A stretch of DNA of 64,000 nucleotides from Amoebophrya sp. A120 (Eukaryota; Protista; Dinoflagellata): the NCBI GenBank assembly GCA_905178155.1, contig CAJINV010000004.1, positions 2,626,228-2,690,227 of the forward strand, written 5' to 3'. The notes beneath the pieces were generated by a model. That model saw only the letters and a program-made list of their open reading frames with translations. It searched no databases and was not told the DNA's origin. Shown in pieces: positions 4,445-61,896 of the stretch. How positions within the stretch are numbered: the stretch's first letter is position 1; each line of letters starts with the position of its first letter. The translations under genes were made by a program, and so were the position numbers.

Positions 4445-6638
4445 TTACTTCACCAAATAACTGCATCGCCCACTTCCTGGGTCTATCTGAAATCGTCCGC
4501 CTTTCTCCTCGGCCAGCAACTCCTCTAGTAAGTGCTCTGGCAGCTCTATGAGGTTCGGGCCGAGCGGTGGCATATTACTTCCGGAGGACAACGACAACCA
4601 TTGCACCAGCTCGAAGTCTGTCTCCCACGCTTTCGCGGTGGCAAAGCTATGCGGGAGGATTCCGCGGAGCTGTGGAAAAGCAAACTGCCCGTCGCTCGTT
4701 CGTCTCGGTGAAAAACTACAGGGCGAGTCAGGCTCAGCAGGCGCGGGCGGTGCTGGTGAAGTGTTTTTAGGCTGGTTGCGTTCATAATCTTGAAGATTCA
4801 CGCGCGAAGATCCTGACTGATGGCTCTGCTTCACCGGAGACCCTACAACACGGCGTTTTTGTCGCTCGGCCGCTTTTCTTTCTTCCTCCTCCCACATTTT
4901 GGCGAGCCGAAGCACCACGGAAACCCCTCCTGCGACACAGGTATCCGGTTGGAAGAGCTGCACGGGGGGTCGTGGGTAGTTAAAACTAGGGGAATGACGT
5001 CGCGCCGGCGCAGTCATCCACGGCCGAAACGCCTCCACACCGATGAGCGATTCGCAGCCCGCGATGGCGATTTTTTCACAACTTTGCCTGTTTGTATTTT
5101 GATGTTGTTCGTCACGTAGACCGAACGCTACGTAGTCCTCGAGCGCATTCGGCGCAAACGGTTCCTCGCAAAAGCCGATGCCCACAGGTTCGAACACTTG
5201 CCGCATTAACGTTTCCACGAAGAAAACTTGCTCTGATCCGGTTTGCCACTCCTCTTGGAAGCCCATCAAATCCACGAAAAGGTGGATATCCGGACCGACA
5301 ATTCGGCGGGCGCCATGGAACACTTGCCTTGCCCAGGCGAGTTGGACGTCGGGGGGGAAAAGAGCATCAACTGCAGATGCGCCTCCCATCTTGATGGGCG
5401 GAGTAGGAGCCGGCTCATGTTGTCGTTGTCGTTGTCTTGCCGTGTGGTCCACTTGTACTACTGGCACTTCTCCTACGCCTACCTTGTTGTCAAATAGACC
5501 AAACTATGGATTGCAAAAATGTCTGGGTCTGGAAGAATGCAAGATTTGTCATGCATATTTCTCATGACTCATGATGCCTGTAATGCAGGACCTAGCATCG
5601 CAGACTTTTAGAGGGCTTCCTGATGCACCTTCCGCATGAGAAGTGCCCTGTTCGTGTAGCACAAACTGTGCCCCTCTTGCTGGTCATGCAATACAAATCT
5701 TTTTAGAGTCCAAAAACAGCATGACAAGTTGCAATCTTCCAGACCCAGACATTTTTACAGTTGATACAAACGGCGGCCCCACGAAGAGTTTGAACGCTTT
5801 CAAGTGGTAGCAACGCATATGCATTGCAAAAGTATCGTACTCGTATAAATGCAAGTCTTGCATTACAAATCTTGTCCCCAAGGCAAATCTGCATTACAAA
5901 TTTTATTTCTCATGCTGCAGAAATTTGTATTGCATTTATACGAATACGATACTTTTGCAATGCATAACGCATCAACCGCTCCAATTTTGCAGCCAGCAAC
6001 CCTATCGCCTCCTCTGGGTCAAAAGAAAACGGAATTTCCACGGTGCAGTAAGCAACTGGCCCACCTCGTCCTTGATTTTGACGCGAGAAGCCGCGGAATG
6101 GTGTAGCTCCGTTCTCAGAGGACCATGCTGCAGACAACAACTCCGCCAATTCCACTCCCTGAAGCTGAGCTTGCAGCTGCCACAAGGCCGTGTCAATGCC
6201 ACTGATTACGGCTGCGGCGTCCGGGTTGCGGCAGTTATACGAAGAGGAAATGAACAAGCTAGCATCATCTCCTGATGTTGATGAATTATCCTTCGCACTA
6301 GCCACCGGCTCATTGTTTGCCAGCGGGTTGTTCCAGATCGCAGGTCCCGCCGTGCCAGAAATAGCCTCCAGGCTCTTCGCGACCCTTTCCTGTAACGAAT
6401 CGGCTACCTCTTCTTGCCTGGATAAAAAGTCTCCGGCGCCTGATGAACTAGCTCCTTGCCAAATTCTCTCCGCCTCGCCAGCATCGCAATAGGAACAGCC
6501 TACACCAACTTTGTCGCCAAATGTGATTTCGCAGTGACTGACCGGCCGGATGAGCGTCTCTGTCCATCTTACCGGGCGCTGCCGAGTGAAACGAATGGAG
6601 AAATTTTGTGGCGCGACGGGCGGCCGAAGCCTCGCCAT
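4445..6638 (-). CDS. Enolase-superfamily enzyme (mandelate racemase/muconate lactonizing family)
   Basis: ISGIDTALWQL, AFKLFVG, RIVGPDIHLFVD, CEEPF, AGCES, QPDTCVAGG; continuous after removing two introners. Confidence 0.85.
5505..5766. mobile_element. Introner family A, 262 bp
   Basis: TIR TATGGATTGCAAAAATGTCTGGGTCTGGAAG; DR CAAAC/CAAAC. Confidence 0.95.
5818..5966. mobile_element. Introner family C, 149 bp
   Basis: TIR TATGCATTGCAAAAGTATCGTA; DR ACGCA/ACGCA; join LMRCYHL. Confidence 0.95.
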
Positions 6639-7220
6639 GGGATTCTAAATGGCTCTCAAATGCTGGTCGACGATGATGATTTTTACGTGCTGCAGACAAC
6701 TGCTACGTACTCTCTCTTTCGAAACCGTTTCATCGCGCACCAGGATTAGAAATAAACTCGGTTGCTGTGACCGTAAAATGCAAATAACTCATGACGAGAG
6801 CGGAAGGATTAAGAGGACGGACGGACAAACGGACACAAGAAGACACGAAGGAGGAGGACGGGGCTATATCTTATTATCGATCAAAAACTTTTGTGCAAGG
6901 AGGATCGTGTGACCGCGCTCCTTCCACAGTTGTGGCTAATCACCTTATTAAGTATTCGATCAGAAACTTTTGATCGGAAACCAAGTGCGAAAGAACATCA
7001 AAGTTGTACCATGAGTGTGTCCTCATCCTCAAGGGAACAAATTATGCCACTGCGATCTTTATTTTTTACGCAATGAATAAATAGAAGCCGCGTCAACGTC
7101 AAGCTCAAGTCCGAGGATTGCAAACTGCTTTGATATTTCTGTTCGTGAGAGAAATTATCAGAAAGGCCGCGAACAAGGGGAACGCGACATCACCTCTGCG
7201 GACGAGTCATCTTTCTACAT

Positions 7221-9772
7221 CTACACATTCACTCTGGTACGCCGTTTCCGGTTCGCGCGGATCTTGATCTTGGTGAACTTGTGCATGTACCGCGTCCGCG
7301 TGCGCATGCCGTACCGTCGCTGCATGCGGTTGCACATCCTCCGCTGCACGATCAACCCCAGGGGCTGCTTGGGCGACCGGGTTTTCAGGCCGTTCGCGTA
7401 CACCCCCCACCGGGTACAGGGCACCTTCTTCTCGGATTTCGCCTGCGACCCGCCCCCGTGTGGGTGGAACGAGGCCTCCATCGCGTTCCCCCGGACGCTG
7501 GGCCGAATACCCAGCCGCCGGTTCACGCCGGCCTTGCCTTTAAACCTGATAGAAGACGCAGTGCACTCGGCTTTTTAGTTGTACTCATGTGCTGTGGATA
7601 ATCTTTCATTCTTTGAATTGCACATTCAAATGAAGACTTTATTATTTAGGTTCTTATCTATTTCATCACTAGGACTGTCGTCTGCGCATGACAAATTTGA
7701 AGAAGAACTGATAAAATACCTGTGATCGTGCATGATGTTCGACACTTGGCCGATGGTCGCGTAGCACTCGTTGTGAAACTTCCGGATTTCCGTGCTGTTC
7801 AGCTTCAGTGTCGTGTATCTGGGGCAACGGTCAAGCAGGATGGCGAACGCCCCCGCCGCTCGGGCCACCTGGCCTCCGTATGGAATGCAAATATGTCTGG
7901 GTCTGGAAGGATGCAAGGTTTGTCATGCTTGCGTGGCATGACTGACGAGTTTGTGATGCGTGTCCAAGAAGAGACCCTTTTTTATTTTCTTGTCATGCAA
8001 ACACGCAGGAGCTTGTCACGCGGTATTAAGCGCAATACTAAGCCGCGCAAATATTTCTCATGCTTGGCTGCACATAATTACAGAGCATTCACTATTCACA
8101 ACCCAGCATTACAAGTTTCCAGACCTCCCAGACATGTTTGCATTTGATACTCCGCGCCCCGGCTCAATTTCCACGTTGTGCACGATCGAGGACACCGGTA
8201 TTTTCCCGAGTGGCAAGGCGTTACCGGGCAAAATGTTCGCGTTTTCGGAGGCCACCACCTGGTCGCCGGGGCGCAGCGTGTCCTGTGCAAAAGTATCGCA
8301 CTCGTATTGCAGTCATGCATTACAAATCTTTTTGTGAAGGCAAATCCGCAGTACAAATTTTATTTCTCATGCTGAGGAAATTTGTAATGCATTTATACGA
8401 GTGCGATACTTTTGCAATGCATACAGTGCGTGCGGCGCCAAAATGTAAGACAACACCCCGTCGTCGTACTGGATGAGCGCAATGTGCGCGCTCCGGCCCG
8501 GGCAGTACTCGATGCGGAGACAGGTCGCGGGCACGTCCTTGCGGCCGCGTTTGAAGTCCACGATGCGCAGGCGGTACGCACACTCCGCGCCCTGGTGCCG
8601 CACCACCACTTGCCCGGTCACGTTCCGGCCCGCGTGGTTGATGTGCGGGACCGACAACTGCTTCACCACCCGACCCCGAATATCCCACAGAAAAAAGCAG
8701 GCAGGTCATATTTGTAATGCAAAAATAAATATACCGGAAAAATCTGTCATGGGCGGCCCCATAGCATGCTGTTTAGGATGCGCAACACAGATTTTTCTGT
8801 GTGTTTCTTTTTGCATTGCAAAAATGCCCTGCTTGCTTTTTTCTGTGGGATACCGAAACGTGTCTTGCGGGTACTCCTCGAGCAGTTGCAGGAGCTTGCG
8901 CTGTATCCTGTGCAGAAGTATCGTATTCATAGTAATCGCATTCATGCATTACAAATTTCCATCCCAAGGCAAATCAGCATGACAAATTCTGTTTCTGATG
9001 CTCAACTAATTTGTCATGCGATTTATACAAGTACGATACTTTTGCGATGCATACGCTGTTTTGCGAACGTGAAGGGCGTGAAGACTTGCTGCTGGGGCAG
9101 CGGGCAGGCGAGCTTCGGGTACCCGGTCTCAAAGTCGGTGAAGGGGATCCGATTACGCTTCAGAATGGAGTAGCAGTTCGCGAACGTGCGGGTCTGCGAA
9201 AGCAGGTGCTGGTGGGGCTGGATGGAGGTTGGTTGGTCATTTCTGTCTACGAGTACTACGCAAGAACAGCGGGCGGGAGCGGGACTAGTAGAAGTTTGCT
9301 GGTAGTAGAAGTAGTTGCCCTGCTGGCCGCTTCTGTTGCTTTGCAGGCGGATCACTGAAGAAGAGGAGCCCAACGACGAGCTTGTGCAAGTAAAAATTGG
9401 TCGTCCACCAGCACTCCGCGAAGTACTAGATGATCTCCTTGTAGTACTTGAGGCCTCCAAGCGGCCCCCGGTCGAGAATCTTCTCGTCAGAACTGCTACT
9501 GCTACCTGTGCGAGGACCACATACGAAGTCGAGGAGGACGCCGCTCTTGTTGACCCGACTAAAAGGGGCCGGGCCCCCGCGCTTGTTGAGGAGGTTCCTC
9601 GGAGCTGCGACAGGTCAACACGTCGTGGTGGGGCTGCAAGAAGAACATTCGAAGAAGTTCTTACAGCTTGACCGAGGGTTGGGCGGGGAGCACGAGCAAT
9701 GGAGGTCGAGGTCGTTAATCCAGCTACACGACCTCCTCCACAACAGGATGCTGGTAACGACATGTTGGTCAT
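7221..9772 (-). CDS. RPL2: Mitochondrial-type ribosomal protein uL2 with long N-terminal extension
   Basis: AGRNVTGQVVVRHQG, RIEYCPGRSAHIALI, GNALPL, HNVEIEPGRGGQVARAAG, GKAGVNRRLGIRPSVRG, HPHGGG; 4 introners plus GT-AG intron 7546-7719; start codon tentative. Confidence 0.93.
7879..8149. mobile_element. Introner family A, 271 bp
   Basis: DR CTCCG/CTCCG; removal restores conserved uL2 PGRGGQVAR. Confidence 0.95.
8279..8423. mobile_element. Introner family C, 145 bp
   Basis: TIR core GCAAAAGTATCGCACTCGTAT; DR CAGCG/CAGTG; join APHALRPGD. Confidence 0.9.
8681..8852. mobile_element. Introner family D, 172 bp
   Basis: TIR TATCCCACAGAAAAAAGCA; DR CCGAA/CCGAA. Confidence 0.93.
8904..9053. mobile_element. 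Introner family C, 150 bp
   Basis: TATCCTGTGC..GCGATGCATA; DR CGCTG/CGCTG. Confidence 0.9.
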
Positions 9773-10889
9773 TGTCGTAGTCGTCCCGGGTGGTACTAGT
9801 TCGTAGGTGGACCACTCGATGGAGGCGTTGGTGCGTACGAATGCGGTTATTTTTGCGTCGATCAAACAATAGAAGCCATGAGTTGAAAGAACGCTCACTC
9901 AAACCACCTCGTCAGTCTGTCGTTGGATCAAGCGTCGACAATCGACGTCCTACGAGAAGAGCAAGCACTTCTAAGGAGAGCACACGACAGCACGGAGACG
10001 GGACATCAGGACAAGAGGCATCGTTGCTTAAATGTAATTTCAACGAAGTTTTATTTTTCGTATGGTATTTGTATGCAGCATGAGGGCGGCCGCGGTGGTG
10101 GTCCCGCCCCGTGCTTTTCCATTGAGACGAACTCAGCCTCCGCCGTGGTCTTCCAAGGCACCGCTTTTATTGAAATGCGAAATTCTTGAAAACGCCGATC
10201 TGCGAGGAAATCGCTCGTGCCTGGCTGCTTGTTCCAACAACAGATGAGAGACAGGCACAACTACCGAAAAAGGGCTGCTCCGAGATGTAAGTAAGTACTT
10301 ACACGAAAAGAAAGGCTCTGCCCCCTGATGTAGATATAGCGAACATCAAATCTGCCACCGACCTCTATGGGTTATCTGGTGTGCTGCGTGTGGGTTGCTC
10401 CTAGCAACATGCACCTATGCAGCCGTCAATTCTTGATTAGATTTACTGTGCGTGATTTCTTTTTAGACTTCAGATGAGGGAGTAAAACCTGATATATAAT
10501 GCCGGATGGACCATTTCAGCTGCGGTCGTGTTTGAGTTTGACATTGACTACTCTCAATAAAATGCAAAGACCTGCTGCTCCCGCCAACTTTTTTTGCATT
10601 AAGAACCCACCCAGCGGGGAGACAGAAAACAAAATAACTTTGTAGTTGCCTATACGTCTACAAGTCACAGCACACAAGCAGATTAAAACTGCAAAACTAA
10701 TACATATGCTGCGAAGCCTCTGGCTCTGCTTTTTTTGTTGACACAGAGACGCAATTCTTCATGGAACATGAACAAAAGTAGATGCGGATAACGATTTTTC
10801 GCGGGGATTATGATCAGTTGTGTAAAAATGTGATGTAGTGAAGTCGTTTCAGTGTGATTTGACTTGCAGTGTGATATTGAAATAAAATT

Positions 10890-13800
10890 TTACACGTCCT
10901 CCGGGTACGCCACCACTTTGCCTGTCTTATGGCGTTCTCAACTGTTAGTACATTCTCAGCTGCTACATGGACTTGTGATGCAAGAACCGCAATAGTGAAA
11001 GGAACAAGCTGTTGCAACTCTCGCATCACAATAAATTTGGCACTGATAATTTAGGCAAATTGTTTAGCCCTTCGGGAATTTTTTGCCACGCGCCGGAGCT
11101 TCATCAGCTTGATCGTCTGGCGGCTCATGGTAAATTTGCATGACAAATCATGCAACAGTTGAGAAGGTAACCGATTTGAGAACGCCATATGTGTCCAGAG
11201 TCACGGTCTTCATGAATCGGGATGGGTTCGGACATGGTCGGGGCTTGGGCAGATCGCCCTTGGTATCGCAAGAAAAAACTGTTTCACTGTGAACTTGTGA
11301 TGCAGGAAATGGCACACAGAACTCTTTGTCTTGCTACACCTGCAAGGCATTGGATTTTCAAGCGTGTAGTTTTCCCGTGGGAAGAGCGCATGACAAATTT
11401 TCAGTGTCATGTGTAGCAAACTTGTGATGCAGACCGTGCAAAGTCATCACAGTGAAACAGTTTTTTCCTGGGCTACTTGGTTGCCAGTTTGTACTGGAAG
11501 TATCAAATGCAAATATAGATCTGAGTGTGGAACACTGCAGCAAGCTTGTCGCACTAAATCTGAATGATGCAAAAATCTGTGTTCTTGCGTGAGTACAACC
11601 GAAAGCTGTCCGCGTTTGACCAAGTTGAGAGGGAGTTTTTCATGCAGGAAGGGCATGATAGAGACCTCAAAGTAGAATCTGTCATGCTAACTCTTCTTGC
11701 ATTCCAGACCTCATGGGTGCTCATGGAAAACTTGCATGACAAGTGTTCCAACGCGTTCCAGACCCAGACATATTTGCATTTTTTCATAGGAAGACTTCCG
11801 GCGCGAACTGCTCGGACAACTTCAACGACTCGGCGTATGGATGTGTCAGGATTGAAATCGTCAAAGTTGAAATAGTTTGTGATGCGTAAAATGCAACGCA
11901 GACATTGTCTCTATTGCAGAGGATGCAAGGGAGGCAGATTGTAAGCCTGTTGAGGGGTAGAAATAGAACTGCTAAAGTAGCATGACAAATGACGTCGCCC
12001 TTAACCAAACAGCATGACTAACTGGATTTAGGTTCTACCTAAATTTGTCATGCGCCGCTTGGAAATTGGGTTTCCGACTGGTATCCATTTTATGCATGGC
12101 AAATCATTTCAACTTTGTCGATTTCAAACCTGACGCTTCCATACGGTGGCGCCGGAGTTCTCCGAGCTCCCAGGGCCGCCGGTGCCAAGACGTTCCTCGC
12201 GAAGCGTTGCCACGTGGGCGGAAAACTTCGCGTCCGGGTTATCGAAGGGAAACGTCCCCCCTCCCCATATCAAGGCGGAACTTCTGACGCTGGATCTGTG
12301 GACACAAATCAGCTTTGTATTGCAGGAAGGGACGATTGCGGCCAGCTCCCCAATCTAGGTAGGGGCGTTTGGGTCTAGTTGCTCAGCATTGCAAACGGCT
12401 GCTCTTTGGGCCCAATAGCATGGAAAATCGCTTCAAAGGGCGCAAGCTTCTGCGTCTGCCCTTGTCTTCTTGCAAGACAAAGGTGATTCGTGACCGCATC
12501 AAATCAGCAACGCAAATCTTCGGACACATGCCTTTTCAATATGGGGAGGGCGAGTTTTTCCTTTCAATACAGGCCTCCCTCGACCTGGGTCGCCAGGGGG
12601 GTCCCCGCACACAGCTCCCCAATCGTTCTCGGGAACGGAGGAATCTTCTTCCCGGGGGGGCATCTTTCTTGCAACGGGTCGCCTTCATATGCATCTGCCA
12701 CTTCTTCTGGGTCGACGGCACAGCCGCCGTCCGTCAGGTCGACATGTATGAGGTTCCCAAGCGCTACATTCTCAACTGTTACATGAATTCATCGTCCACG
12801 CGATCAAGCTGCTTCGCGTGACAAATTTGCCTAGGGCCAAACAACACCTAAATCTGTGCGGAATTTGTAATGCTACAGGCGCAATCTCCCCCCTTTCACA
12901 CACTTGCTTTCCCATTCTTACGTCACAAATCCATGTAACAATTGCGAATGGAACAGTCGAGAACGCCATAATATGGCACCCGGGGTTGTCGCTCAGCATT
13001 GTAAAGGCTTGCGGGTCGCCGAAGAGGGACTCCCCGAACACGTTCGCCTCGTGCGTGGTGAAGATCACGGTTATACCGTAGACGGCCGCGAAACACATCA
13101 CGTTGCGAACCACAAGGGGGTATCCTGTGCAAAAGTATCGCACTCGTATTGCAGTCATGCATTATGTATTATGGTAAATCCGCATTATCTCATGCTGAGG
13201 AAATTTGTAATGCATTTATACGAGTACGATACTTTTGCAGTTCATAGGGGGTGACTTGTCGGGTCCAGGCCCTTGGTGGCCTCGTCCAGCAGCAGCAACC
13301 GGGGCCGCATCGCCAGGGCGAAGGTGATATCCTGTGCAACAGTAATATCGCAGTCGTAGTAATTGCAGTCATGCATTACAGATCTCCTTTCCAAGGTAAA
13401 ACTGCATGACAAATTCAATTTGCCATGCTGAGAAAATTTGTAATGCAATTTATACTAGTACGATACTACTTTTGCAATGCATAGGTGAGGCGGTACCGCA
13501 CGCGCTCCCCGTCCGAGAGGTTGATGACCGGTAAAGTTGTAGATTGGTATGTCGTCCCGGTCTCTTTGGGGACCGCGTCCAGGATTTCGGTAAAGTTGAA
13601 GAAGGACTCATGGTTCTTTTCGAAGCCCTCGTCCCACGTGGCAGCCTCTGAGTAGTTGCGGTTGGCGGGCCCAAACAGGCCCTTCCCGTGCTGCAACAGC
13701 TTGTCGTACATCAGGGTAACCCTGGCCACCAGCTTGAGGTCCTCGTCCGTCAACTTATTTGGGTTTCCCCCCAACAACTGCTGGCGGATACTCCGGCCTG

Positions 13801-16800
13801 GCAATGGCGTGTTGGAGGTCACCAGCTGGTAGTGCCGCTGCAGGCGGATCATGGCAATGTCCCGGTCGTTTTCGGGGTCCACTGCGCGCTTTTTCTCGCC
13901 CGTGTTTTCCGCGATGGGGACGCCATTCCAGCGGATCGTGCGCTTCCCCAGACTCGGTTCGGGGAACGCTGACACCAACTTCATCAGGACGCTTTTCCCC
14001 TGGCCCGAGGGCGCCGTGAGGTGCGTGATCGACCCGGCAGGGAACTGCAGGGTCTGCCCCCCCGTGCAATTCTTGTTGTTCGCAGCACATCGCACCGGCC
14101 ACAAATATTGCTGTGTGCCTTTTCCGATGTCGCCCGCGTATGACAGTGCGCAACCTGCTCCCTTGTCGCCCCTCATCTGTCATGCAAAACCCCAAATGAT
14201 CCAGTCGCTGCCCTGTCTGTGGCACTGTTTGCATGACTACAGATTCCGGAAGCCCAAACAGTAGTACTACATCAGGCACATAAATTTGTCATGCGGAGGC
14301 TCCACGCGTGCTGGTGTTTGTATTGCTGTTCATGCCAACATACAAATGACGGGTAGGCGGAGCAGTTGTGCACCCTCATACGCCGCTTATGAGGTTCACC
14401 CGCTCCATTTCGAAACTGACCCGATCCCGGGTCCGGATATTGTGAGGAAAAATCCCTGCTCCCCATATCTGTGATGCTCATTCTTTGTGGTCACAAATCA
14501 GCTTGGTCTTGCAGAAGCAGAAGGTACCTGGCTGTATTTTCCAAGCCTGTTCGAGTTGTATGCATAAGGCTACTAGCAGTTCGGCATGGCTGCAAACAGG
14601 TTTGCAGTAGTCGAAAGTGCACGACAGACTGGCTGCAGAATGCGCCACAACAAGGCTCGTCCCACTCCCCTATAGGCAAGACGAAGGCGATTTGTGCCCA
14701 CAAATCAGCATGACAAGTTCCCAACATTTTGATGATATGGGGAGGGGGGATTTTTCACTTTGATACCGGTCCGTCGAAATCCAGAGCGGGTGCGTGGCGT
14801 TCTCGCCCCGCGTGGACAAGTTTGCAAGGAAAAAACTGTGTAAGTGTAACTTTGTCTTGCAGACGTTGCAATACAGCTACACTTGTCTTGCTGGATATGC
14901 GTCAGAGGCTATTTTCCTACATGTTTTCGTGTACTAGCTTACGCATGGCAGGTTTTCTCTGTCATGCAAAACAAATCTGTGATGCTGTCCCTGCAAAAAA
15001 ATTACACTTACACACTTTTTTTCTTGGATAACAAGGAGATCAAATTCATAAACTTTGCCAGCAGTGGGTTGTAGGTCGCGGCCTGGATATTCCCGGTAGC
15101 GCCCATCAGCTCCCCGGTGATCCCCTGAATCGCTTGCGCCCCGGAATTATGGATTGTAAAAATGTCTGGGTCTGGAAAGTTACAACTTGTCATGCTGTCG
15201 TTGGATCCCAAAAAAATCTGTATTGCGTGACCAGCAACAGGGGTCCAGTTTGTGTTACGCGGAGAGGGCATTTGTCATGCGAAATAGGAATCAGGAAGCC
15301 ATCTAAAAATCTGTGATGCTAGATCATGCATTACATGAGTCATGGATCATACAAAATATGCATCACAAATCCCGGAATCTTCCAGACCCAGACATTTTTA
15401 CATTTGATAGGAATAGGCCGCCGTCACGTCTTGTCCCGTCAAAGCGCCGTACATCATGGAAGCCACGAGCATCGGCATGGCCATCACCCCACTGATGGCT
15501 CCCAGCGTCTTTTTCACGAAGAGAAACTTTTGCAGTTTGCGTTCAATTCGCAGAACTTGCTGCTCCGTTTCCTGGTTCAGTTCCACAAGATTCTTTCCGA
15601 TCTGTGCATTCTCGCGATAGTCGTTCAACTTTTCCGGGCTTCCAAGCTGCGCACGATACTCCTGCGCCATCTCTTGCGCCCGACCCAGCTCCCCGCGAAT
15701 TGCCCCAATTTTGTCATCCAGGATGGGCCAATGCACGGTCAGCAGCACCTGCACGACCATCACGACGAGGGGAAACATGGCCGCTGCGGTGCCGCCCGTC
15801 GCCCAGGTGGCCCCGAAGACGAAGAGCATGCTGGCACCGTGCGTGGCGATCGCAGGTATGTAGTCGAACAACATGGAGACCATCCCGGGAATTTGCTGCA
15901 GCGCCACCGCGGCGTCCCCCGTGAGAAGCCGGCTCTCGGGTCCGGTGGCTAGGCTGGAGACTTTTTCAATCAATATCCAAGAAAAAAACACAACCAGAAT
16001 CACATTTAGGCGGTTTTCTTGCATCAGAAACTTGCCCTCTCGCATGACAGATATTTTATTGCATTGCAAAATTATCACAAAGGGAATAAATCGCCCATAG
16101 CTTTTGGCTGTGAAGATGCATTTTTGCGCATGCCAAGAGTTTTCGTATATGCAAAAACGTTGGCCATGTGATCAGAGCCCTCGCCCCACAGACATGCCTG
16201 AAGCTTCTCGGGATGGTCTGAGATGCCTGCTCCTATTGAAATGGCTGACCTAAATGGCCTGAACTGGCCAGATCCCTGACGCGGATCCCCTAACTTACTA
16301 CGAAGGCAAAGCCATCGCGATCGCAGCGAAATGAAGGGAGTCCGCTCGGTCTAGACGTTCAGAATGACCATCCTGAGGGGGGTGACTCCCACCAGGATCG
16401 AGCACCTAGCCGACAGCATTGAGGGAGGTAGTCCCGTGCTGTTTAGCCCCTTGACTCTGACCAGGATCAGGCTCATCCCATGCGATGAATTGGAACAGGA
16501 TGCAACGCACGCAGCCAGAGGCTTTCGCCCTGTCTGCTGTGAGATTGAAGCGCTGGAATTGATTAGAAGAACCCCGCGCGGCGAAGCTTTAGTCACTCAG
16601 TGTGGCAGGTGTGTTCAAAGTCCAACAAGAAATGTGCAAAAGTAATTGTGATAATGTTTTTTCTTGAATTAATCAATTGAAGTTTCACATTAGTCTGAAC
16701 CCAGGTTAGCATGGTCTGGCGCGCCTGGTCGCAAATGATGAAGAGCAAAACGCCCCCCAACAGTGGCAGTGCAACGCTCTGCAGCACCGGCCAGGTCAGC

Positions 16801-45330: not shown

Positions 45331-46244
45331 TCTGACCTGCTACACCTATCTAGAAAAGGGAAAAGAAGCAGAATTAGAGCTGTAGTTCTAGTTGGGCGGT
45401 TAAAATATAGTATGATCATGCATCATGATGCCGAGTCGGGTGGGACAACAATACTTGCGTGCTCGTGCTATCACGATGTAGTTTTAGTAGCGTACTAGAA
45501 CTTGAAATTGAATTTGATGAAATCACTATAATCATAAAACAACTTTTGTGTATTTTCGGGCCAGCAGGGTTGGGTGGGAGGATGAAACAGCAAGACCAAA
45601 GCTCGCACGTCTATCGACGCTTTGTGGGAGGGCGGGTTTTGTTGCACTGATGATGAGCCTGTGCGAGACTTTCTTCAACGAGGATGAGGACAACACGACC
45701 AGAAACACCGTCTTTCTGTTCGTCGAGTAGGCTAGCGATGGCTAGTACTGTGTGTCTGCGTGTTAATGAATTCCAATTCGATGAGATATTATCATTACGA
45801 AAAGAAACGTCACTGACAAACTAGATCTCGTCCAGCTCTGTGTCGCTCAGGGTTGTCGAGGAAGTTGATGTGTGAGTTTGGTTTAGTTAGAATTCTAGCA
45901 CAGCGAAATCTAGTTTTACAACTCGCGGTCGAGCCTGGGTTTTCTTTGCATCTCGGTACGACGTTTTTCTGGTTTTTTCCAGGAAAAAAAGACAGAACAC
46001 GTGGGAACGAAAGCGAATCGGGGGCAATGCATTGACTGAAAGTCTCGCAGTCGAGAAGGTGTTTCTGCTTCCTTTTTGCGCAAATTGTGTCGCGTTGTTT
46101 TGTTTACTCCACTTGCCTTTCAGCATTTCAAGATTCCGCTTTGTTTGGTGTGGGTGTCGTGTGAAGGTCAGCAGGGTTCTTTTGCTTCTTTATCCTTTCC
46201 TCAAATCAGGACCACCCACACGGCTGCTGCAGTCGCTAGTACCG

Positions 46245-47428
46245 CTAAAGCACCTCCACGATTTTTTCTTGACCCAGAATACCTATTGCGACGATTTTCA
46301 CCTCATCGCCCGCCTCAAACTTTTTCAGCAATTCCTGCGCCACCTCGTCCGGTAGCCCGGTCTCGGTATTTTTCGGCAGATTGAGGTCGTCCTTGGGCTC
46401 GCCGCTGGCGGTCTATGGATTGCAAAAGTGTCTGGGTCTGGAAGATCGCCAGACTTGTCATGCAGGTTTTCCATGACCCATGAGGTCTGGTATGTAGGAC
46501 ATAGCATGACAGATTTTGCGAGACCTTTCTAATGCCTATCCTGCATGAGAGCCTGCCTCTCGATTAGGTCAAAAGTGCACAACTCGTGGCAATCATGCAA
46601 CACAGTTTTTTGCCTGATCCAGATTTAGCATGACAAGTTGCAATCATCCAGAGGACCCAGACATATATGCATTTGATACGGTCAGACAGGATACGATCTC
46701 CCCGTCGATGTTATCCCGCGAAAAAAGTGTTTCACTGTGACGATTTTGCAAAATGCGCATCACAAGTTTGTTACACATGACACTAAAAATTTGTCATGCG
46801 CGCTTCCGCCCAAGGGAAAACGTTCTTGAAAATCCAACGCTTTGCAGGTGTAGCAAGACAAGTCGTTCTGTGTTGCATTTTCTGCATCACAAGTTCACAG
46901 TGAAACAGTTTTTTTTTGCGATAAATGTCCATGACGGTGTACTCTTCTTTCGTCACGGCGGGTACCTGGAGGTGTAAGTAGATAAATGTCCCTTGTTCAT
47001 CGTCGAATAAATAAGCTATCAGTTCTGATGATTTATCATGTAAAAAAACGCTGCACGGAGGTGCAGCGTCGATCATGTCTGTCATCGTCATTCAACACCG
47101 TGCGTTCACAAAATTGTTTTTGTCCTCACGACGGGAGTACAAAGCAAAAGCAAAAGACTTTCTCTTGTTGTGCGAGAGAAAAAGAACATGTTTCCCCCTA
47201 TACCTGGACTTGCGAGGCGGACCCGGCTGTTAAGTTCAGTGTGTCTTCGTACTTTTTCCCCGTGAAAACGTGGGTGCCTACTATGTGTAGTCTGTCGTTC
47301 CCCTTCACCGTCGCTTTGGGTTTCTGGTTCAGCTCCACTATCTTGCAGGGCTGGCCTTTGATCATCACGTAACCCGGTTTTTTCAATGAGGACGCGCTCA
47401 TCGTCGGAATGTCGTCGGCGTCCGGCAT
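46245..47428 (-). CDS. eIF5A-like protein with divergent hypusine loop
   Basis: SSLKKPGYVMIKGQPCKIVE..HIVGTHVFTGKKYED..VPAVTKEEYTVMDIDG..GEPKDDLNLP..GQEKIV; GT-AG intron 46966-47203; 2 introners. Confidence 0.9.
46414..46678. mobile_element. Introner family A, 265 bp
   Basis: DR CGGTC/CGGTC; interior is the reverse orientation of 2122/17331/40093. Confidence 0.93.
46712..46923. mobile_element. Introner family I, 212 bp
   Basis: DR GATGT/AATGT; reverse-complement relative of 11264-11475. Confidence 0.92.
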
Positions 47429-48291
47429 TTTGGTAGCAGTTTTTTGGCAGGGTACGTAGTACGACGCTGGAAATAGTATCTATGAGGGGCGTTGAAGGTG
47501 GCCGTGGGGATAGTAGAAAGGTAGATCGGAGAAAACAAGTGCGGTTGAACTACAGAAAATGTAATTGTCGCCTAAACGTAAACAAACCACATACCATACC
47601 TATCAATGTCCCACCTAGACTTACATTTACAACTGGCTGCTCAGCAAAGTAGTTCCCGGTGACATTTCTTTTGCCAAATGTTGACGTACATACAGCCAAT
47701 AATATGCTAGAGCTTTGACATCCTCGCCACTAATATTGATGACAACTCGTACGCATCTTTGCTATATAGAGTCGATTTTCACGACGTGGAAAAAGACTGA
47801 TCCAGCGATCTACTGCTACCGAATCTTTGACTTTTGATCGCGCTCGCCACTGGTTGATCATTCAACACTTTTATCGGATCTACTTCGTGGTCGGGTTTGT
47901 GCCAAAATCGAGATCAAGTAGTGATAGATTCTACTCAGTCCATCTTTATTTCATAAACAGCATGGCAAATGCGATTCGATCACGAGGAGCGTCAGGACAA
48001 AGGACCTTTTGCGTCAGGGACATACAATTGAAGGCACGAACAGCCCCTGCTAACAAAATACTAATATCATTTTCCTGGTGCTTAATGTAAACGGCTGTGG
48101 TAGAGTTGAGTTTCACTTTCACTTGCATGCTGCACCTCATCAAGAAGATTCATGTCCGCACACTCCTTCACTTCTTTTACGCAAAAAATGTAGACACAGA
48201 CATCAGGATTCACCAAAAATTCATCGTCCGCATCAACATGATCGAGGGTCGTCAGTCACAATGAGGAGCAACACCAGGAAATGAATTGTAT

Positions 48292-51258
48292 CTATGAACT
48301 GGTAAACACACCGTCAATCTCGTGAATGATCCCGTTCCAACAGCGCACGGTTCGCACGATGTTGCAGCTCCGGTTCCCCACGGCGACCTTCCGGTCCAGG
48401 CCGTAAAAGTACTGGTCCTCGAGGCAGTGCTTCACAAACACGTCGAGTTTTTTTATCCTATGTAAAAACGTCCCCACCCCATAGTTGTAATGCAAATGCG
48501 CAATTACAGGAACATTTGTAATGCGCATCTCCATTACGGGCATTTCCGATCGTGTTTTGGACTTTGTAGTGCTGTAAACCGGATGGCAAGCTAGCTTTCT
48601 CATGCGGCTGCCCTTGCTAACAAGCACTACACTGCAGATGGGAACTTGTCATGCACAACGCCCAAAGCTTGGAGATTTGTGTTGCAGATAGAGCAACTTG
48701 ACTATGGGGCGGGGACGTTTTCGCTCAGGATATTTTTCCGGGGATTTTCCAACGTCCGCAGTTCTGCCCCGCCGAACGTGCTCTCGTTGATGCCGTAGGG
48801 GAGATGCCGGCGAAACCGGCCCTCCAGCAGCGCGTACTGCACTTCGCTCGCGGACTGGTTCGCGACCAGCTGGTAGGGGTCGATTTGGGGCTGTTCTGAC
48901 TGCTCGGTCTGTGCGAGTGCACAACTCACCCTCCCCCTCATTTGTAATGCAAAATCCCATCAAATCCAATTGCTGCCTTGTCCTTGTGGCGCTGCTTGCA
49001 TTACAAAGTCTGCAAACCCAAGCGCATGCAGCACTGCACTCAACGCGTGAGCTTGTAATGCGCAGCATCCACAAGTATTGGTCTTTGTGTTGCTGTTCAT
49101 GCCATAGAAATGAGTGGGAGGAGCGGGACTTGTGCACTCTCATACGGTCGTGTGTAGTCCACGTGCCCGCAGGGGTCCGCCGCCTCCACCCGGTGCACCT
49201 ATTTGTCCTGCAGCTGGACCGCCTGGTTCTTCTTGCAGCTCTCCTGGTGCAACAACATCTCCACCTGCCAGCCCCATTTTTTCCCTTGCCATCTGCTCCG
49301 TCTGCTCGCTGATGCTGGCCCGCTGCATGGATTCCGTTAACAGGTTCTTTTGCACCGACGACAGCTCTGTACTGGGGATCTGACCCACGTACTCCGGTAA
49401 CCGGTACCCGGTGCGTGCCGTGCGAAAGTGTATCAAATACAAACACGTCTGGATCTGGAAGATTGATGCGAGATTTGTCATGTTAGTCTGGCATCATGTT
49501 CATGACTCTGCGCCCTGTATTGTGTGGCCACCAAGTAGAGGTCCGCTTGCCGGTAATGCAAATGCGCAGCTTCTCATGCGAAATACGCAGCACAGACGCA
49601 CAAAAAAACTTGTCATGCTTGGCGGCGCATTGCAGAGCACTTATTGCTCCTCACGGACTTGCATCACAAGTTTCCAGACCCAGACACATTTGCATTTGAT
49701 AAAGTGCTTCTCGTAGCAATCCTCTATGTAGCCGTCCATCAGCGCGCGCTCGGGGTAGACGTACGAAACCGGCTCCGAAGAGAGACACTGAAACGTCGCG
49801 TGATCATCGTGGCCACCACTGCGAGAGTCGTCTCCAAAGTAGTTGTTTTTGTTGAGCGCAAGAAGCTGTTCTTTTTGTCCATCGAAGAACGAGCTGGAGT
49901 TGTCTTCGTGCTCCTCCTATCCAGTGCAAACATGTCTGGGCCCGGAGTAAACTCATGATGCTGAGTGGAAAAATCATGAGCAGGATGCCACAAGTGACGG
50001 CTCGGCGTGACAAGATTCTGGGTTCTTGCTAGGTGTCGTCTAATATCCAGCATGACAAACTTCTGCGTTTTTGCATGACAGAAATAAGCCGTGGCTCTTT
50101 GGTACTAACCTACATGATAGACTTGAGAATCAGGTCCGGACCCGGAGCTGACCATGCTAGCAGAGCATGACAAACTTCCATCCTTCCAGACCACCCAAAC
50201 ATATTTCCGATGCATACCTCCTGCATCCGCTTCTCCCGTTTCAGATCCTCTAAATAGTTCAGAAGTGCAAGTTTCTTCCGTGCGGCCTTCTGCGTCTTCG
50301 GGTTCGGGTCAGTTAGCTCGTTTTCGAGTTCCTGATCCTGGGATCGCTGTTCGGCGTAATAATCTCCCCACCAGCGTCGATTTTTGCCTTGTTTGTCGCT
50401 CGGTAAGTTAAAGTTTCTATTCCCCAACGCAGGACCATCGTTGTCAGTCGCAGAAATTGATGCGGCCCCATTCTCCGCCAAGGTCGCGACGGCGTTGTAC
50501 GAGTTCACCAGCTCTGGAATGTCGAACTTTCCCAACACGAGGTGTCGCTTCAGAAATCGCAGCAACAAATCCGGGTTGTCGCGCATGGTCTGCCACGAAT
50601 TTTTCCCAATTTTCGCAATCGCCTCGTTATTGGGCACAAACATCGTGAACGGACCGCTGGTAGAAATCAAATTCAGCAATCTACTCGTGCAGGCAATTCT
50701 ATTTCCTGGTCCTGCGCCTTCGGCGTCACCGATCCCAACTCTTCCGCGAAAGTTTCCGTCGTAGGAGCCGTCTTCACGTGGTTCACCCTCTAATCCCAAA
50801 ATAGGAGAAGAACTGTTATCAAGCCCGTCATGATCATCATGTGAGAAAACTAAATCCTCCAGCCGGCCGTGTTCCAGAAACTTTTTCTCCCGCCTCTGCT
50901 TCGTCCGAAAGTCCACCTCGTTGGTGAGCAGTTTCCCCTTGGACAGCAAATTGTACCAAAGCGAACACCGCTTCACTTTCGCCGTCGCGTTCACAATCGT
51001 GTCGCGCCGGCTGATGTCGTGCACGTGCTGGTAGTAGGCCAGCGCGTTGTGCTTGGCGTTCGGCGTGTTGTGGTGAAAGCCCTTGTAGACCGCACCGCGC
51101 TCCTGCCGTGGCGTGTAGTTTTTCGTGAAGCGCCCATTACACTGCGCCGGACAGACCTTGGCGTTACTGTTCCCCCCGTTACTGTGGTTGTGGCCCATAC
51201 CACGCAAAATCTTCGAGAAACGAAAGATGCCGCCGAAGCAGCCCGTGGCTTCTGACAT
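48292..51258 (-). CDS. Fasciclin (FAS1) domain protein with large insertion in the domain
   Basis: H1 GPFTMFVPNNEAI, LKRHLV, terminal H2 NGIIHEIDGV; 4 introners in frame. Confidence 0.8.
48454..48732. mobile_element. Introner family E, 279 bp
   Basis: DR TTTTT/TTTTT; same length and similar interior as 17009-17287. Confidence 0.92.
48910..49144. mobile_element. Introner family B, 235 bp
   Basis: TIR core GAGTGCACAA; DR CGGTC/CGGTC. Confidence 0.88.
49431..49701. mobile_element. Introner family A, 271 bp
   Basis: DR AAGTG/AAGTG; join EKHFRTAR. Confidence 0.92.
49918..50216. mobile_element. Degenerate family A introner, 299 bp
   Basis: DR CCTCC/CCTCC; join MQEEHED. Confidence 0.85.
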
Positions 51259-51337
51259 ATTTGAGGTTTCTATAGAGAAGCGATTATGTTTATCATTATA
51301 GTTGATTAATATATTTATATAAGGCAAACTTTGGGGC

Positions 51338-51770
51338 CGGAGAGGGTACGGTAGAGGTTGGGGAGAGGTTTCGTAGAGGTTAGACAGAGGGTCGGAGAGG
51401 TAAAGTAGAGGGTCGACAAAAACAAGAGGGTCGGGGAGAGGTAAAGGGAGAGGGTACGGAGAGGGTCGGGAGAGGGTGCGCAGTATAGGGACCCGTATAG
51501 CGGCGCTATACGCGCGCAGAGGGTCGGTAGAGGTTGAGTAGAGGTCAAATAGAGGGTGGGGGGAGAGGGTGTAGAGGGTCGGAGAGGTTCCACAATATAG
51601 GGCGACCCTCTAAGCGACCCTCTACCGCGACCCCCTCCGGGAGCCTCTATTTTACCTCTCGGCGGACCCTCTCGGGACCTCTTGGACCCTCTCCCGGACC
51701 CTCTCCGAACCTCTCCCGGACCCTCTCCGAACCTCTCCCGGACCCTCTCCGGGACCCTCTACCAGAACCG
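51338..51770. repeat. Inverted minisatellite (AGAGGGTCGG array facing CCCTCTCCG array)
   Basis: G-rich repeats 51338-51590, complementary C-rich repeats 51604-51765. Confidence 0.85.
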
Positions 51771-59100: not shown

Positions 59101-59971
59101 GGTCCTAGACAACTTCTTTCTCCACCACACCAGGAACAGGGGCTTCTGTGTTTTTCAATTCATGTGGTTGTTTTTCTATGGTTTAACAAAAGAATCATAT
59201 GTTCAAAATTAGCGAATCCCATCACAGAGGATCTTGCCGAGAATCGAAGAAATTTTCATATGGAGAACCAGACATATTTATGAAGCTGTGACTACCTTTT
59301 TCATGCAAAAAACTTCAAAACGCTAAGCGTAAGGTGAAACCATAAAAACCAGTCTACTCTACTTTCATGCTATGTGCAACTCGGCACCTTCTAAAAGACA
59401 ACTTTACGGATACGGGTATGATATAAGAAAACATCAAACACCTATGATTGCGCTACTGAAATGTGCCTAAATTTGAAACAAATGGAAAAATGCAAATGAC
59501 TGTTACTTGATTTATCGCATCACGGTATCGACGCAGATTGCGCTATCATGGGAAGAGATGCTGAGCTGGCAGCCTGGCTAGACCACTGCTCAGGAGTAGT
59601 ACTGTCCCGTTGTACTGCTGGCCTGGTTTGTTCTGCAGCTTCCTCGTTGAACTATGGCACGAGGGACGGAGTCGGAGTCCGAAGATCTCGTCCTGACACA
59701 ACGGATAGCACGGCACCACGAGCTGCCAGCACTGAAGTACCAGCAAGTGAACGTAGAAGGTTGGCTGTTGAATTCGGTTATCGCACTACAGTTTCATGAT
59801 CTTCAAGAACCTGATGATGCAGCGGCTTGCGTTCGCCCTCCTGCGCCAGACGGAGGATGAAAAGAAAGTAGACGCATCAGGTACATAGATGATGCGCAGC
59901 AGGCGGTGACTTGTTTTCTTTGGTCGTCATACAGGAACTAGGGCAAGATGAACCAGGGAGCGATGAAATCA

Positions 59972-61896
59972 CTAAGGCGCAGGTGGAGGCGGTGGCGGCG
60001 CGGGGGGCTGTGGTGGTACTGTCCCGCTCTGGGGCATACTCATCATTTGCATCATCTGCATCTGCGTGGCCATCATGTGCTGGTAAGCGGCCCCCTGCTG
60101 AGCGGCGCTGCTCACCGGAGACACAGCATTTGCAGCAGCTGGAACTGGTGGTATGGCAGCAGCAACTCCTGTACTAGAAGAAGTTGATGTTCCTGTTGTA
60201 TTTCCTCCCGCTACGCCCTTCATAGTCGCGTTAAAGTTCGGGGGAAGCGGGGCCAAAGACGTTGAGGGGGGACTACGCCGTGGGCTGCGGGACCGAGAGC
60301 GCACGCTGGCGGCTGGTTGAGGGACTACTCCTGTAACAACACGACTTTGTGGTGCGCCAATTCCTCCTGGCACGCCCATACTCGAGGCCGTGGCGGTCGC
60401 GGCGAAGGGAGCGCTGCTCTTGCCTCCAGTCAAGATCGCCGTGGAAGTAGATGATCCACTTCTGTTGTTCGCCGCCGCACTGGCTGTATTTGCAAACATG
60501 TGGTAGGGCAGGTTGGTGACCACCCGGCCAGCGGCTTTGGGGACTGTGCCCTCGGGCGGGGGCCCCGGAATCACGCTGTTTTGCGGGCCCTGGATGGAAA
60601 AGCCCTGCATATGAAATGCAAAAATGTCTGGGTCTGGAAGATTGCAACTTGTCATGCTGTTTTTGGACTCTAAAAAATTTTGTATTGCATGACCAGCAAG
60701 AGGGACACCGTTTGTGCTACACGGGCAGGGCATTTCTCATGCGGAAGGTGCATCAGGAAGCCCTCTAGATGTCTGCGATGCTAGGTCATGCATTACAGGC
60801 ATCATGGGTCATGAGAAATATGCATGACAAATCTCACAACCTTCCAGACCCAGACATTTTTACAATCCATACTGCACGGGAAACGGCAACAGAGGGCGCT
60901 GCTGGTTCATGTGCTGCTGTGGTTGTAGTGGTCCTGCTCCGAACATACCAGGTTGCATCACGAAACTGTTCGGGCCGCCCATCATGCCTGCTCCTCCCCC
61001 CGCTAGTACACCTCCCACGCCCAGTCCTGCGGGCGGCACCGTGAAACCTGCCGCAGTTCGGAGTTCCGACGTGCCGTGCGCGTAGTGGCAGTTGTCCCCC
61101 CACTGACAATAGCCCTTCAAATGTTTCTGGCAGATCTTCGTCTTATACAGGTGCTCGCGGCCCGCGAAACAGGCGGGAATGGGCCGGTTGGCCGGCGGCC
61201 CGGTGAGCGCGTTCATCTGTTGCTCGCGGTCCCGTTCCTCTTTCGTCACCTCGCGGACGTGAGGACCACCACGACGATGATGGCCCCCGGTAGCGGAGGT
61301 TGACGCTGTGCCATTCGCGTAATTCTGCTCGTCGTCACTACTGTCGTCGCCGCTGCCGTTGTCGTCGTTGCCGGTCGCTGCTTCCTCGTCGTCCTCCGAA
61401 TCCATCCAGGCGAACTCCCGTTTTTTCTTCTTCTTTTTCTTCTTCCCGGAGTTCATCCCTTCGCCCTGCTCCTCTTTCGCCTTTTTCTCGAGAAGCTCCT
61501 TGGCCCGCTGTAGCCGCTCCTCCCGCTCCTCCTTCTCGGTCTGTTTCCGGAAATCCTCCAGCTCTTTCTCGGTCAGCTAAAAAGTGATGAAGGAAAGTTT
61601 GTATAAAATTCATTAGAGAGGACAGGGGCCGTGCTGCCAACAGTGGTAGTAAAAATGCAGTTGTATCTTCAAACATCAATGAAACAATCTCTCTATCGCT
61701 AAAACAGGGTACGTAGATATTAAACATAGAATCTTGTTTCATCTACCTGTGGATTTATATCGTCATTGACGGCTTTGTCCTCCTCGTCCTCCTTTACTTG
61801 CTCTCGCCAGTCTTTCGCCTTGCTTTTGACTGTGGCACCTCCAGCACCCACGACGGCTCCCCGCTTTGCGCCAAGCGGGTTCTTGCGGCCAAGCAT
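59972..61896 (-). CDS. CCCH zinc-finger (C3H1) protein with low-complexity tail
   Basis: YKTKICQKHLKGYCQWGDNCHYAHG (C-x8-C-x5-C-x3-H); GT-AG intron 61577-61746; introner 60610-60871. Confidence 0.85.
60610..60871. mobile_element. Introner family A, 262 bp
   Basis: DR CTGCA/CTGCA; reverse-complement relative of 5505-5766. Confidence 0.95.

What the first reader, a model, noticed from the sequence alone, without database searches (positions are those of the whole stretch)
5505..60871. The same introner occurs in both orientations relative to transcription
Seen: all hosts are on the minus strand, yet 5505-5766 vs 60610-60871, 11264-11475 vs 46712-46923, 10928-11189 vs 41930-42164, and 46414-46678 vs 2122/17331/40093 are reverse-complement relatives, and both orientations restore frames. 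Inference: recognition is strand-symmetric (TIR stem or symmetric motifs), which fits poorly with a polar donor/branchpoint/acceptor layout and fits DNA-level transposition.
Basis: partly seen in the sequence, partly recalled or inferred. Interest (0 to 1): 0.78.

Follow-up and report, generated by a model that had tools for sequence, protein, structure and literature searches.

The report
Reversible transposon introns, fixed cut rule
In a marine parasite, small hairpin-shaped jumping elements sit inside genes in either direction and are cut out of the RNA either way, likely at fixed distances from the hairpin rather than at the usual GT-AG signals, which makes an unexplained kind of splicing testable.

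Summary
All six named inverted pairings align in their interiors (z 9-30), and every host that could be called reads on the minus strand. The window is Amoebophrya sp. A120; these are its published TAT…ATA introner elements with 5-bp target duplications. RNA-derived contigs lack element plus one duplication at 8 of 9 elements in one stretch and fit it for 7 more, both orientations of the main family included. In a second assembly all 16 families with at least 4 members occur both ways (86 of 242 in the minor orientation). Corrections: 40093 lies inside a GT-AG intron, and 10928 is not shown to be spliced. That puts T at +2, as in GT, with +1 and the final dinucleotide at background frequency. 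Bidirectional introners are known from Polarella and Aureococcus; I found neither bidirectionality nor this register in print for Amoebophrya. A relaxed spliceosome is the likeliest catalyst, but this is inferred.

The parts
5505..5766 (.). Family-0 element, orientation A, TSD CAAAC
   Evidence: removed with 5818 in X1 record 2; 592-aa MR/MLE frame
60610..60871 (.). Family-0 element, orientation B, 92.7% to the reverse complement of 5505, TSD CTGCA
   Evidence: removed in annotated protein P0002; no RNA laid here
2122..2383 (.). Family-0 element, orientation B
   Evidence: X1 record 1 length fits L+5 removal
46414..46678 (.). Family-0 element, orientation A, in eIF5A gene
   Evidence: joint skips 270 = L+5 in 4 of 4 runs
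17331..17595 (.). Family-0 element, orientation B, imperfect TSD
   Evidence: removed in P0001; excludes the mirrored register
40093..40354 (.). Family-0 element, orientation B, nested 8 nt inside the donor of a GT-AG intron
   Evidence: joint skips 446
39917..40362 (-). Canonical GT-AG intron that contains element 40093
   Evidence: (X3, X4)
11501..11788 (.). Family-0 element, orientation B
   Evidence: removed in P0001
15148..15409 (.). Family-0 element, orientation B
   Evidence: removed in P0001
35662..35925 (.). Family-0 element, orientation B
   Evidence: host call weak
38201..38466 (.). Family-0 element, orientation A
   Evidence: open frame only
11264..11475 (.). Family-13 element, orientation A
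   Evidence: removed in P0001
46712..46923 (.). Family-13 element, orientation B; TSD mismatch shows the last TSD base of the mRNA comes from the downstream copy
   Evidence: joint 46707-46925 in 4 of 4 runs
10928..11189 (.). Inverted relative of 41930 and 12747 at the 3' end of the ABC gene; removal not shown
   Evidence: P0001 reads into it
41930..42164 (.). Family-9 element
   Evidence: joint skips 240 = L+5 in 4 of 4 runs
12747..12970 (.). Relative of 41930, same orientation; TSD mismatch fixes the 4th mRNA base to the upstream copy
12240..12569 (.). Inverted relative of 42236; two TSD mismatches
42236..42557 (.). Element, inverted relative of 12240
   Evidence: joint skips 327 = L+5 in 4 of 4 runs
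42900..43101 (.). Element with TSD mismatches at both outer positions; mRNA carries a hybrid of the two copies
   Evidence: joint 42895-43103 in 4 of 4 runs
5818..5966 (.). Family-1 element, orientation A
8279..8423 (.). Family-1 element, orientation A; RNA uses the upstream TSD copy at the mismatch
   Evidence: record 3 starts at 8424 with 0 other letters
8904..9053 (.). Family-1 element, orientation A
13121..13483 (.). Two family-1 elements, orientation A (13121-13246, 13328-13483)
   Evidence: removed in P0001
18398..18563 (.). Family-1 element, orientation B
   Evidence: removed in P0001; inverted to 5818, z 11.3
42690..42852 (.). Family-1 element, orientation A
   Evidence: joint skips 168 = L+5 in 3 of 4 runs; X2 shows one extra T in a T run
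7879..8149 (.). Element with family-0-like TIRs and another interior; inverted to 20782
8681..8852 (.). Element without a relative in the data
41613..41727 (.). 115-nt element
   Evidence: joint skips 120 in 4 of 4 runs
43430..43691 (.). Element related to 17009 and 48454; 3' end mutated to ACA
   Evidence: joint skips 267 in 4 of 4 runs
11151..19264 (-). ABC-ATPase-domain gene (P0001, 1098 aa): 18 exons, all 17 introns are elements (also 11836-12143, 14139-14380, 14438-14765, 14821-15030, 15974-16671, 17009-17287, 17962-18358, 18617-18860)
41308..45339 (-). 2OG-Fe(II) oxygenase gene, 901-aa frame after removing 6 elements
46248..47479 (-). eIF5A gene with two elements and one GT-AG intron (46966-47203)
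48295..51609 (-). Fasciclin-domain gene, 737-aa frame after removing 48454-48732, 48910-49144, 49431-49701, 49918-50216
   Evidence: no RNA laid
4448..9898 (-). MR/MLE-like gene and ribosomal L2 gene, hosts of six elements
59975..61896 (-). CCCH zinc-finger gene (P0002), host of 60610
138..356 (.). Element, inverted to 14139 and 48910
20782..21038 (.). Element, inverted to 7879 and 49431
36219..39220 (.). Further elements 36219-36521, 36572-36958, 36999-37260, 37741-37894, 37970-38174, 39036-39220
   Evidence: open-frame support only
29705..31177 (.). Two old elements (29705-29866, 30984-31177) with poor TSDs; 29705 does not fit L+5

Best explanation
These elements carry terminal inverted repeats and 5-bp target duplications, sit in genes in both orientations and are removed from the RNA in both; they are likely non-autonomous DNA transposons, likely cut 1 nt before and 4 nt after the predicted hairpin, and the catalyst is likely a relaxed U2/U6 spliceosome. 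Step 1, inferred (about 0.9): an unidentified transposase inserts them with a 5-nt stagger at almost any site, either way round. Step 2, shown in RNA-derived contigs: element plus 5 nt is removed and the original message is restored. Step 3, partly shown (about 0.8): the intron is N-TAT…ATA-NNNN in transcript direction. RNA alone limits the cut to three registers, and the annotated protein narrows it to this one. Step 4, inferred (about 0.55): because both ends are alike, either one supplies T+2/A+3 as in the host's GTA donors, and the terminal stem, rather than an AG, would set the 3' cut.
For: L+5 skips at 8 of 9 elements in 39300-47800. Contig lengths fit L+5 for 7 elements in 1-20000. X5 contigs run through GT-AG introns and into element ends, so the DNA keeps them. 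Family 0 is removed in orientation A (5505, 46414) and B (2122 by RNA; 11501, 15148, 17331, 60610 by annotation). 16 of 16 families with n>=4 occur in both orientations, with 0 inconsistent edges. Register: last TSD base from the downstream copy at 46712 and 42900 (RNA), first from the upstream copy at 42900 and second at 8279 (RNA), third at 14139 and fourth at 12240 and 12747 (P0001). 6 of 6 elements able to exclude the mirrored register do so. 6 of 6 canonical introns begin GTA. Changes to TAT at positions 1/2/3 are 0/0/4 at 5' ends against 1/5/0 at 3' ends in the window, and 1/3/9 against 5/5/2 in 287 independent elements (Fisher p 0.015). Polarella class 12 uses the same register on a 5-nt NNAGG duplication. 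A120 keeps U2, U4, U5, U6, U2AF and PRP8.
Against: No lariat, knock-down or other direct evidence for the spliceosome. AG at the 3' end is at background (18 of 287, 20.7 expected). G at +1 is at background in the loci (88 of 287, background 0.30), although it was 23 of 51 in the window. U1 snRNA was not found in A120. The predicted stem would bury any branch point and pyrimidine tract. G·U does not exceed A·C in the stems (208 vs 220), so an RNA-level role of the stem has no sequence support. Positions 3 and 4 of the register rest on one annotated protein. No family has register data in both orientations. A codon test of the register in the loci was uninformative. All RNA comes from one sample. 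29705 does not fit L+5. No transposase was found.
Confidence: 0.6

Rival explanations
1. Same transposons and same register, but removal is non-spliceosomal: an endonuclease and ligase (tRNA-splicing or IRE1-like, or whatever removes euglenid nonconventional introns) measure 1 and 4 nt from the base of the stem.
For: No G+1 or AG preference. A terminal stem is predicted in both orientations for 11 of 11 folded elements (15-24 of 25 terminal positions paired). U1 not found. Euglenid introns have TIR stems at fixed offsets and noncanonical ends.
Against: The register puts T at +2 and A at +3, as in the host's GTA donors, and these two are spared at 5' ends only. It equals a spliceosomal register in Polarella. 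No G·U excess in the stem.
Confidence: 0.3
2. The elements are excised from DNA, like ciliate internal eliminated sequences, and the transcripts come from excised templates.
For: TA-bounded ends with TIRs. The kind of runs X1-X4 is only guessed as RNA. X5's joint table was truncated, so rare excision joints could be hidden.
Against: X1-X4 also skip GT-AG introns. The displayed X5 contigs keep element ends at about 45x depth. The cut follows transcript direction in 6 of 6 informative cases.
Confidence: 0.03
3. The elements spread through an RNA intermediate (reverse splicing), not by DNA transposition.
For: No transposase found here. Farhat et al. found none in A120. Mild orientation bias.
Against: Both orientations in 16 of 16 families. 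229 of 287 duplications are perfect 5-mers. One copy is nested in an ordinary intron. A shared subterminal motif is symmetric, with a commonest gap of 31 bp.
Confidence: 0.06

Closest known systems
Amoebophrya A120 introner elements (Farhat et al. 2021, PMC7789003; Gozashti et al. 2025, PMC12130899)
   Same: Same organism. IR starting TAT, about 7 variable nt, then an A run; 3-5 nt direct repeats; noncanonical ends; classed as TIR DNA, family unknown.
   Different: Those texts give no orientation tally and call the splice position variable or unknown. Here: both orientations, a constant 5-bp duplication and one register. All 9 of their top A120 motifs have an NT donor, which fits but may reflect aligner preference.
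Polarella glacialis introner-like elements (Roy et al., bioRxiv 2020.10.14.339549)
   Same: Dinoflagellate TIR/TSD introners; several classes make introns in either orientation, with bias. Class 12 (5-nt TSD NNAGG) takes +1 from the last TSD base and the 3' site from the TSD.
   Different: They need G at +1 and AG from the element or the target. Here both are at background, so any target seems usable.
Aureococcus anophagefferens / Micromonas introners (Huff et al. 2016; seen only second-hand)
   Same: MITE-like, insert in both orientations, precise removal.
   Different: Canonical splice dinucleotides, one carried and one co-opted.
Fritillaria borealis noncanonical introns
   Same: TIR-derived non-GT/AG introns removed by the U2 spliceosome.
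   Different: Specific AG-AC/AG-AT ends; U1 conserved there.
Euglenid nonconventional introns
   Same: TIR stem brings the ends together, TSD-like repeats, noncanonical ends.
   Different: CAG/CTG pairing at +4 to +6 and -8 to -6, pyrimidine|purine junctions; no T+2 rule reported in the passage read.
IS3EU/GingerRoot DNA transposons
   Same: TA..TA termini; an integrase-like ORF is reported in one A120 TIR family.
   Different: TSD usually 6 bp there and 5 bp here; no transposase linked.

Membership tests
Amoebophrya A120 introner elements | Host is Amoebophrya A120 | tested here: met
   100% identity to two A120 proteins
Amoebophrya A120 introner elements | IR motif TAT + about 7 nt + AAA at both ends | tested here: met
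   pooled end profile, 96 ends against section 11
Amoebophrya A120 introner elements | 3-5 nt direct repeat at the boundary | tested here: met
   35 of 51 perfect 5-mers in the window, 229 of 287 in the loci
Amoebophrya A120 introner elements | Repeated, and removed from RNA | tested here: met
MITE / non-autonomous TIR DNA transposon | TIRs, fixed TSD, dispersed copies, no coding capacity | tested here: met
MITE / non-autonomous TIR DNA transposon | Cognate transposase | tested here: inconclusive
   no long element with a recognisable ORF in the window or 414 kb of loci; no genome held
MITE / non-autonomous TIR DNA transposon | Empty site in a relative | tested here: inconclusive
   the loci do not overlap the window's exons
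U2 spliceosomal intron | GT(GC)-AG ends | tested here: not met
   GT..AG in 6 of 287 and 1 of 50; AG at background
U2 spliceosomal intron | T at +2, A at +3 as in host donors | tested here: met
   51 of 51 in the window and 283 of 287 in the loci under the inferred register
U2 spliceosomal intron | Branch point and lariat; dependence on U2/U6 | not testable with these tools
   no raw reads of this strain (X9 and X10 do not cover its exons)
IS3EU/GingerRoot | TA..TA termini | tested here: met
IS3EU/GingerRoot | 6-bp TSD | tested here: not met
   RNA removes L+5; flanks beyond 5 nt do not repeat
IS3EU/GingerRoot | IS3-type DDE transposase | tested here: inconclusive
   none found

The most novel reading that the evidence does not exclude
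Amoebophrya A120 has a general transposon-erasing splicing route. Any TAT…ATA hairpin, in either direction and at any 5-bp target, is cut out at -1/+4 with only U+2/A+3 read and no AG, either by a U1-independent spliceosome that measures from the stem or by a new endonuclease-ligase. It would act on tens of thousands of introns and make exonic transposition nearly free.
Probability: 0.5. Interest if true: 0.85.

Novelty: new variant of a known kind. Interest (0 to 1): 0.52.

Why it matters
How A120 removes about 30,000 noncanonical introner introns is stated as open, with borders 'unknown' (PMC7789003). One register plus orientation independence turns apparently arbitrary splice sites into a single rule. 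It predicts exact lariat and junction positions and separates spliceosomal from non-spliceosomal models. A structure-defined, AG-free 3' site would be a real departure in splicing, and a scarless element that works both ways explains genes with 17 such introns. The elements and bidirectional introners as such are already known, which limits the score.

Tried and rejected
G at +1: 22 of 48 in the window (p 0.018), not replicated in the loci (88 of 287); rejected. Drift of the intronic TSD copy towards CGAG: suggested by the window, absent in the loci. G·U excess in stems: none (119/150, 208/220, 246/251). Codon-score test of the register on mismatched TSDs in the loci: no signal. The motif GCAT-N-ACAA as branch point: it resembles the UnAC consensus (recalled), but it is as frequent at 5' as at 3' ends (353 vs 335), so it is not supported. 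ORF-length contrast between L+5 and L+4/L+6 removal is uninformative near frame ends. No RNA holder was listed on record. X9 and X10 matched only element fragments. In one search the DNA run swamped the joint table, so only 7 of 26 elements in 1-20000 were covered by displayed RNA records. No genome held. No annotated protein found for the 28563-31515 gene among proteins of 666-2000 aa. ORFs in 53610-54844: 0 of 4 with a Pfam match; the representative search on one of them never left the queue. Rfam: 0 matches. Earlier findings: none. Huff et al. 2016 is not held.
Full report
OBSERVATION. To exclude the TIRs as the cause I trimmed 55 nt from each end. The interiors still align inverted, and far more weakly in direct orientation: 5505/60610 92.8% (z 29.8 inverted, 3.3 direct), 11264/46712 85.3% (z 20.3), 10928/41930 61.2% (z 9.0), 46414 against 2122, 17331 and 40093 81-86% (z 22.5-26.6). 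I curated 52 elements in the window. 51 are of the TAT…ATA type (115-698 nt), and 35 of these 51 have a perfect 5-bp duplication. One is a 1235-nt TAC…GTA element.

HOST. Two exons match Amoebophrya sp. A120 proteins at 100%. Removing each element plus 5 nt opens minus-strand frames of 592, 504, 901, 737 and 445 aa across 2, 4, 6, 4 and 1 elements. Pfam finds MR/MLE, ribosomal L2, ABC, 2OG-Fe(II), eIF5A, fasciclin, CCCH and ankyrin domains on minus frames; 38 exon frames were scanned, most without a match. L2_C continues from profile position 25 to 27 across element 7879. The six GT-AG introns I located are all minus and all begin GTA.

REMOVAL. Runs X1-X4 are one sample and only guessed to be RNA, but they skip GT-AG introns. 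In 39300-47800 they skip exactly element + 5 nt at 8 of 9 elements: in 4 of 4 runs for seven, and in 3 of 4 for 42690, where X2 has one extra T. The ninth, 40093, is skipped inside a 446-nt GT-AG intron. In 1-20000 the displayed X1 records cover 7 of 26 elements, and the four gap lengths (45, 60, 280, 46 nt) equal the L+5 prediction. Some gaps hold two removed parts, so these confirm sums. Run X5 behaves as DNA at about 45x: its displayed contigs cross GT-AG introns and enter element ends; its joint table was truncated. The annotated protein P0001 removes 17 of the 18 elements in 10928-18860, but reads into 10928 and stops there. P0002 removes 60610. For family 0, orientation A is removed at 5505 and 46414 (RNA), and orientation B at 2122 (RNA) and 11501, 15148, 17331, 60610 (annotation). 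No orientation is systematically unspliced in what I could see. Efficiency per orientation could not be measured from contigs.

WIDER TALLY. A detector symmetric for the two ends found 41 of 52 curated window elements, 0 extra, and 0 in two scrambled controls. A codon-based strand caller was right for 36, wrong for 0 and silent for 2 of 38 elements in leave-one-gene-out. It called 287 of 350 unique locus elements; the 63 uncalled were dropped. Pooled with 51 window elements, 264 of 338 fell into 25 families and 74 were singletons. All 16 families with at least 4 members occur in both orientations relative to transcription (family 0 48:32, family 1 28:14), with no inconsistent edge. The minor orientation holds 86 of 242, a mild bias (P 0.009 against 50:50), and 11 of 21 same-locus same-family groups contain both orientations. 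Window family 0 leans the other way (3:7), so the direction of bias is not settled.

REGISTER. Call the duplication abcde in transcript direction. RNA shows e taken from the downstream copy at 46712 and 42900, a from the upstream copy at 42900, and b from the upstream copy at 8279. P0001 adds b (11836, 17331), c (14139) and d (12240, 12747) from the upstream copy. RNA alone leaves three registers; with the annotation only one remains: exon abcd | e-TAT…ATA-abcd | e exon. The mirror image, expected for about half the elements if the cut were tied to the element, is excluded in 6 of 6 elements that can exclude it, five of them by annotation. No family has such data in both orientations. In this register T falls at +2 and A at +3, as in the host's GTA donors. 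Changes in the terminal TAT are distributed differently at the two ends: 0/0/4 (5') against 1/5/0 (3') in the window, where I first noticed it, and 1/3/9 against 5/5/2 in the 287 locus elements (Fisher p 0.015). I inspected only the four 5' exceptions; two have doubtful boundaries. Position +1 and the last two bases are free: donors GT 88, AT 74, CT 63, TT 61, AA 1 of 287; AG 18 against 20.7 expected. An enrichment of G at +1 in the window did not replicate. One element, 29705, lacks a matching duplication and does not fit L+5.

OTHER ANATOMY. All 11 elements folded form long hairpins with paired termini on either strand, but G·U pairs are not favoured over A·C, so selection on the RNA stem is not shown. 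A motif TTGT[CGA]A[TC]GC is shared by otherwise unrelated families: 98 of 114 window hits lie in elements covering 20% of the bases (49-element set). It peaks 30-50 nt inside each end, equally on both strands, with a commonest gap of 31 nt. I infer a DNA-binding site, perhaps for the transposase. The detector required a similar motif, so its frequency in the loci is partly circular.

MECHANISM. Transposition is symmetric and splicing is polar. The two are reconciled because identical ends give either strand the same 5' T-A and the same stem. I favour a relaxed U2/U6 spliceosome (about 0.55) for three reasons: the register matches the host's donors; it is the register by which Polarella class 12 elements make ordinary introns on an NNAGG target; and A120 retains most spliceosome parts while apparently lacking U1. 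An endonuclease-ligase measuring from the stem (about 0.3) remains open. This step is inference only.

LITERATURE SEEN. PMC7789003: abstract, passages, sections 10-12 and 16, supplement parts 2-3; figures not visible, and Figs 3 and S19-S25 may bear on the register. PMC12130899: section 6, passages, 20 of 58 A120 rows of supplement 8; files 13-14 not searched. PMC9860276, PMC11282704, PMC10228655, PMC10045372 and bioRxiv 2020.10.14.339549: passages. bioRxiv 2025.08.15.670264: one passage and the introduction. Huff 2016: not held, second-hand only. Searches turned up no statement on orientation or a fixed register for Amoebophrya elements. Some listed papers were not opened, and subscription papers and bioRxiv supplements were not searchable. 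Gozashti 2022 allowed opposite-orientation matches in its method.

VERDICT. A real feature of known elements. Bidirectionality is expected for TIR introners and known elsewhere. The added value is its combination with a single register that is nearly free of sequence requirements. New variant of a known kind; interest 0.52.

Noticed in passing
window 53610-54844: 1235-nt element with TAC…GTA ends, about 40-nt TIRs and a perfect 5-bp duplication (GGCGA); no shared motif, no Pfam match, no relative in the loci. Gozashti lists A120 TIR families of about 1190 bp. Possible larger relative of the system.
   Followed up: partly
window 11151-19264: One gene with 17 introns, all of them elements and none GT-AG.
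   Followed up: yes
window 39917-40362: An element inserted 8 nt after the GT of an ordinary intron; whether it is removed first is unknown.
   Followed up: partly
window 29705-29866: Element-like ends without a matching duplication; the long minus frame needs net removal of L, L+3 or L+6, not L+5.
   Followed up: partly
window 7683-7698, 21289, 26100-28100, 31500-33700, 35537: The TTGTCATGC-type motif also occurs outside catalogued elements, once about 25 nt inside the donor of a GT-AG intron; may mark decayed elements.
   Followed up: no
3' ends of elements (window and loci): The A seven bases before the inferred 3' cut changes rarely (2 of 338, against 13 at the mirrored 5' position); a branch-point candidate.
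   Followed up: partly
L057:3001-3972: 972-nt element with perfect family-0 ends and a 5-bp duplication; longest open frame 86 aa.
   Followed up: partly
window 2120-2204, 8270-8304, 8692-8790: Raw RNA runs X9 and X10 (same species label, no cover of these exons) hold hundreds of reads 90-95% like element ends with other flanks: related elements in another lineage, retained in RNA.
   Followed up: no
window 10651-10876: Weak TAT…ATA candidate with a two-mismatch duplication downstream of the ABC gene.
   Followed up: no
window 34377-34900, 21367-21455 / 35103-35190, 51337-51752: A tandem duplication of about 240-nt period, an inverted dispersed repeat of about 90 nt, and a GGAGAGGGT-rich inverted repeat region, unrelated to the elements.
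   Followed up: no
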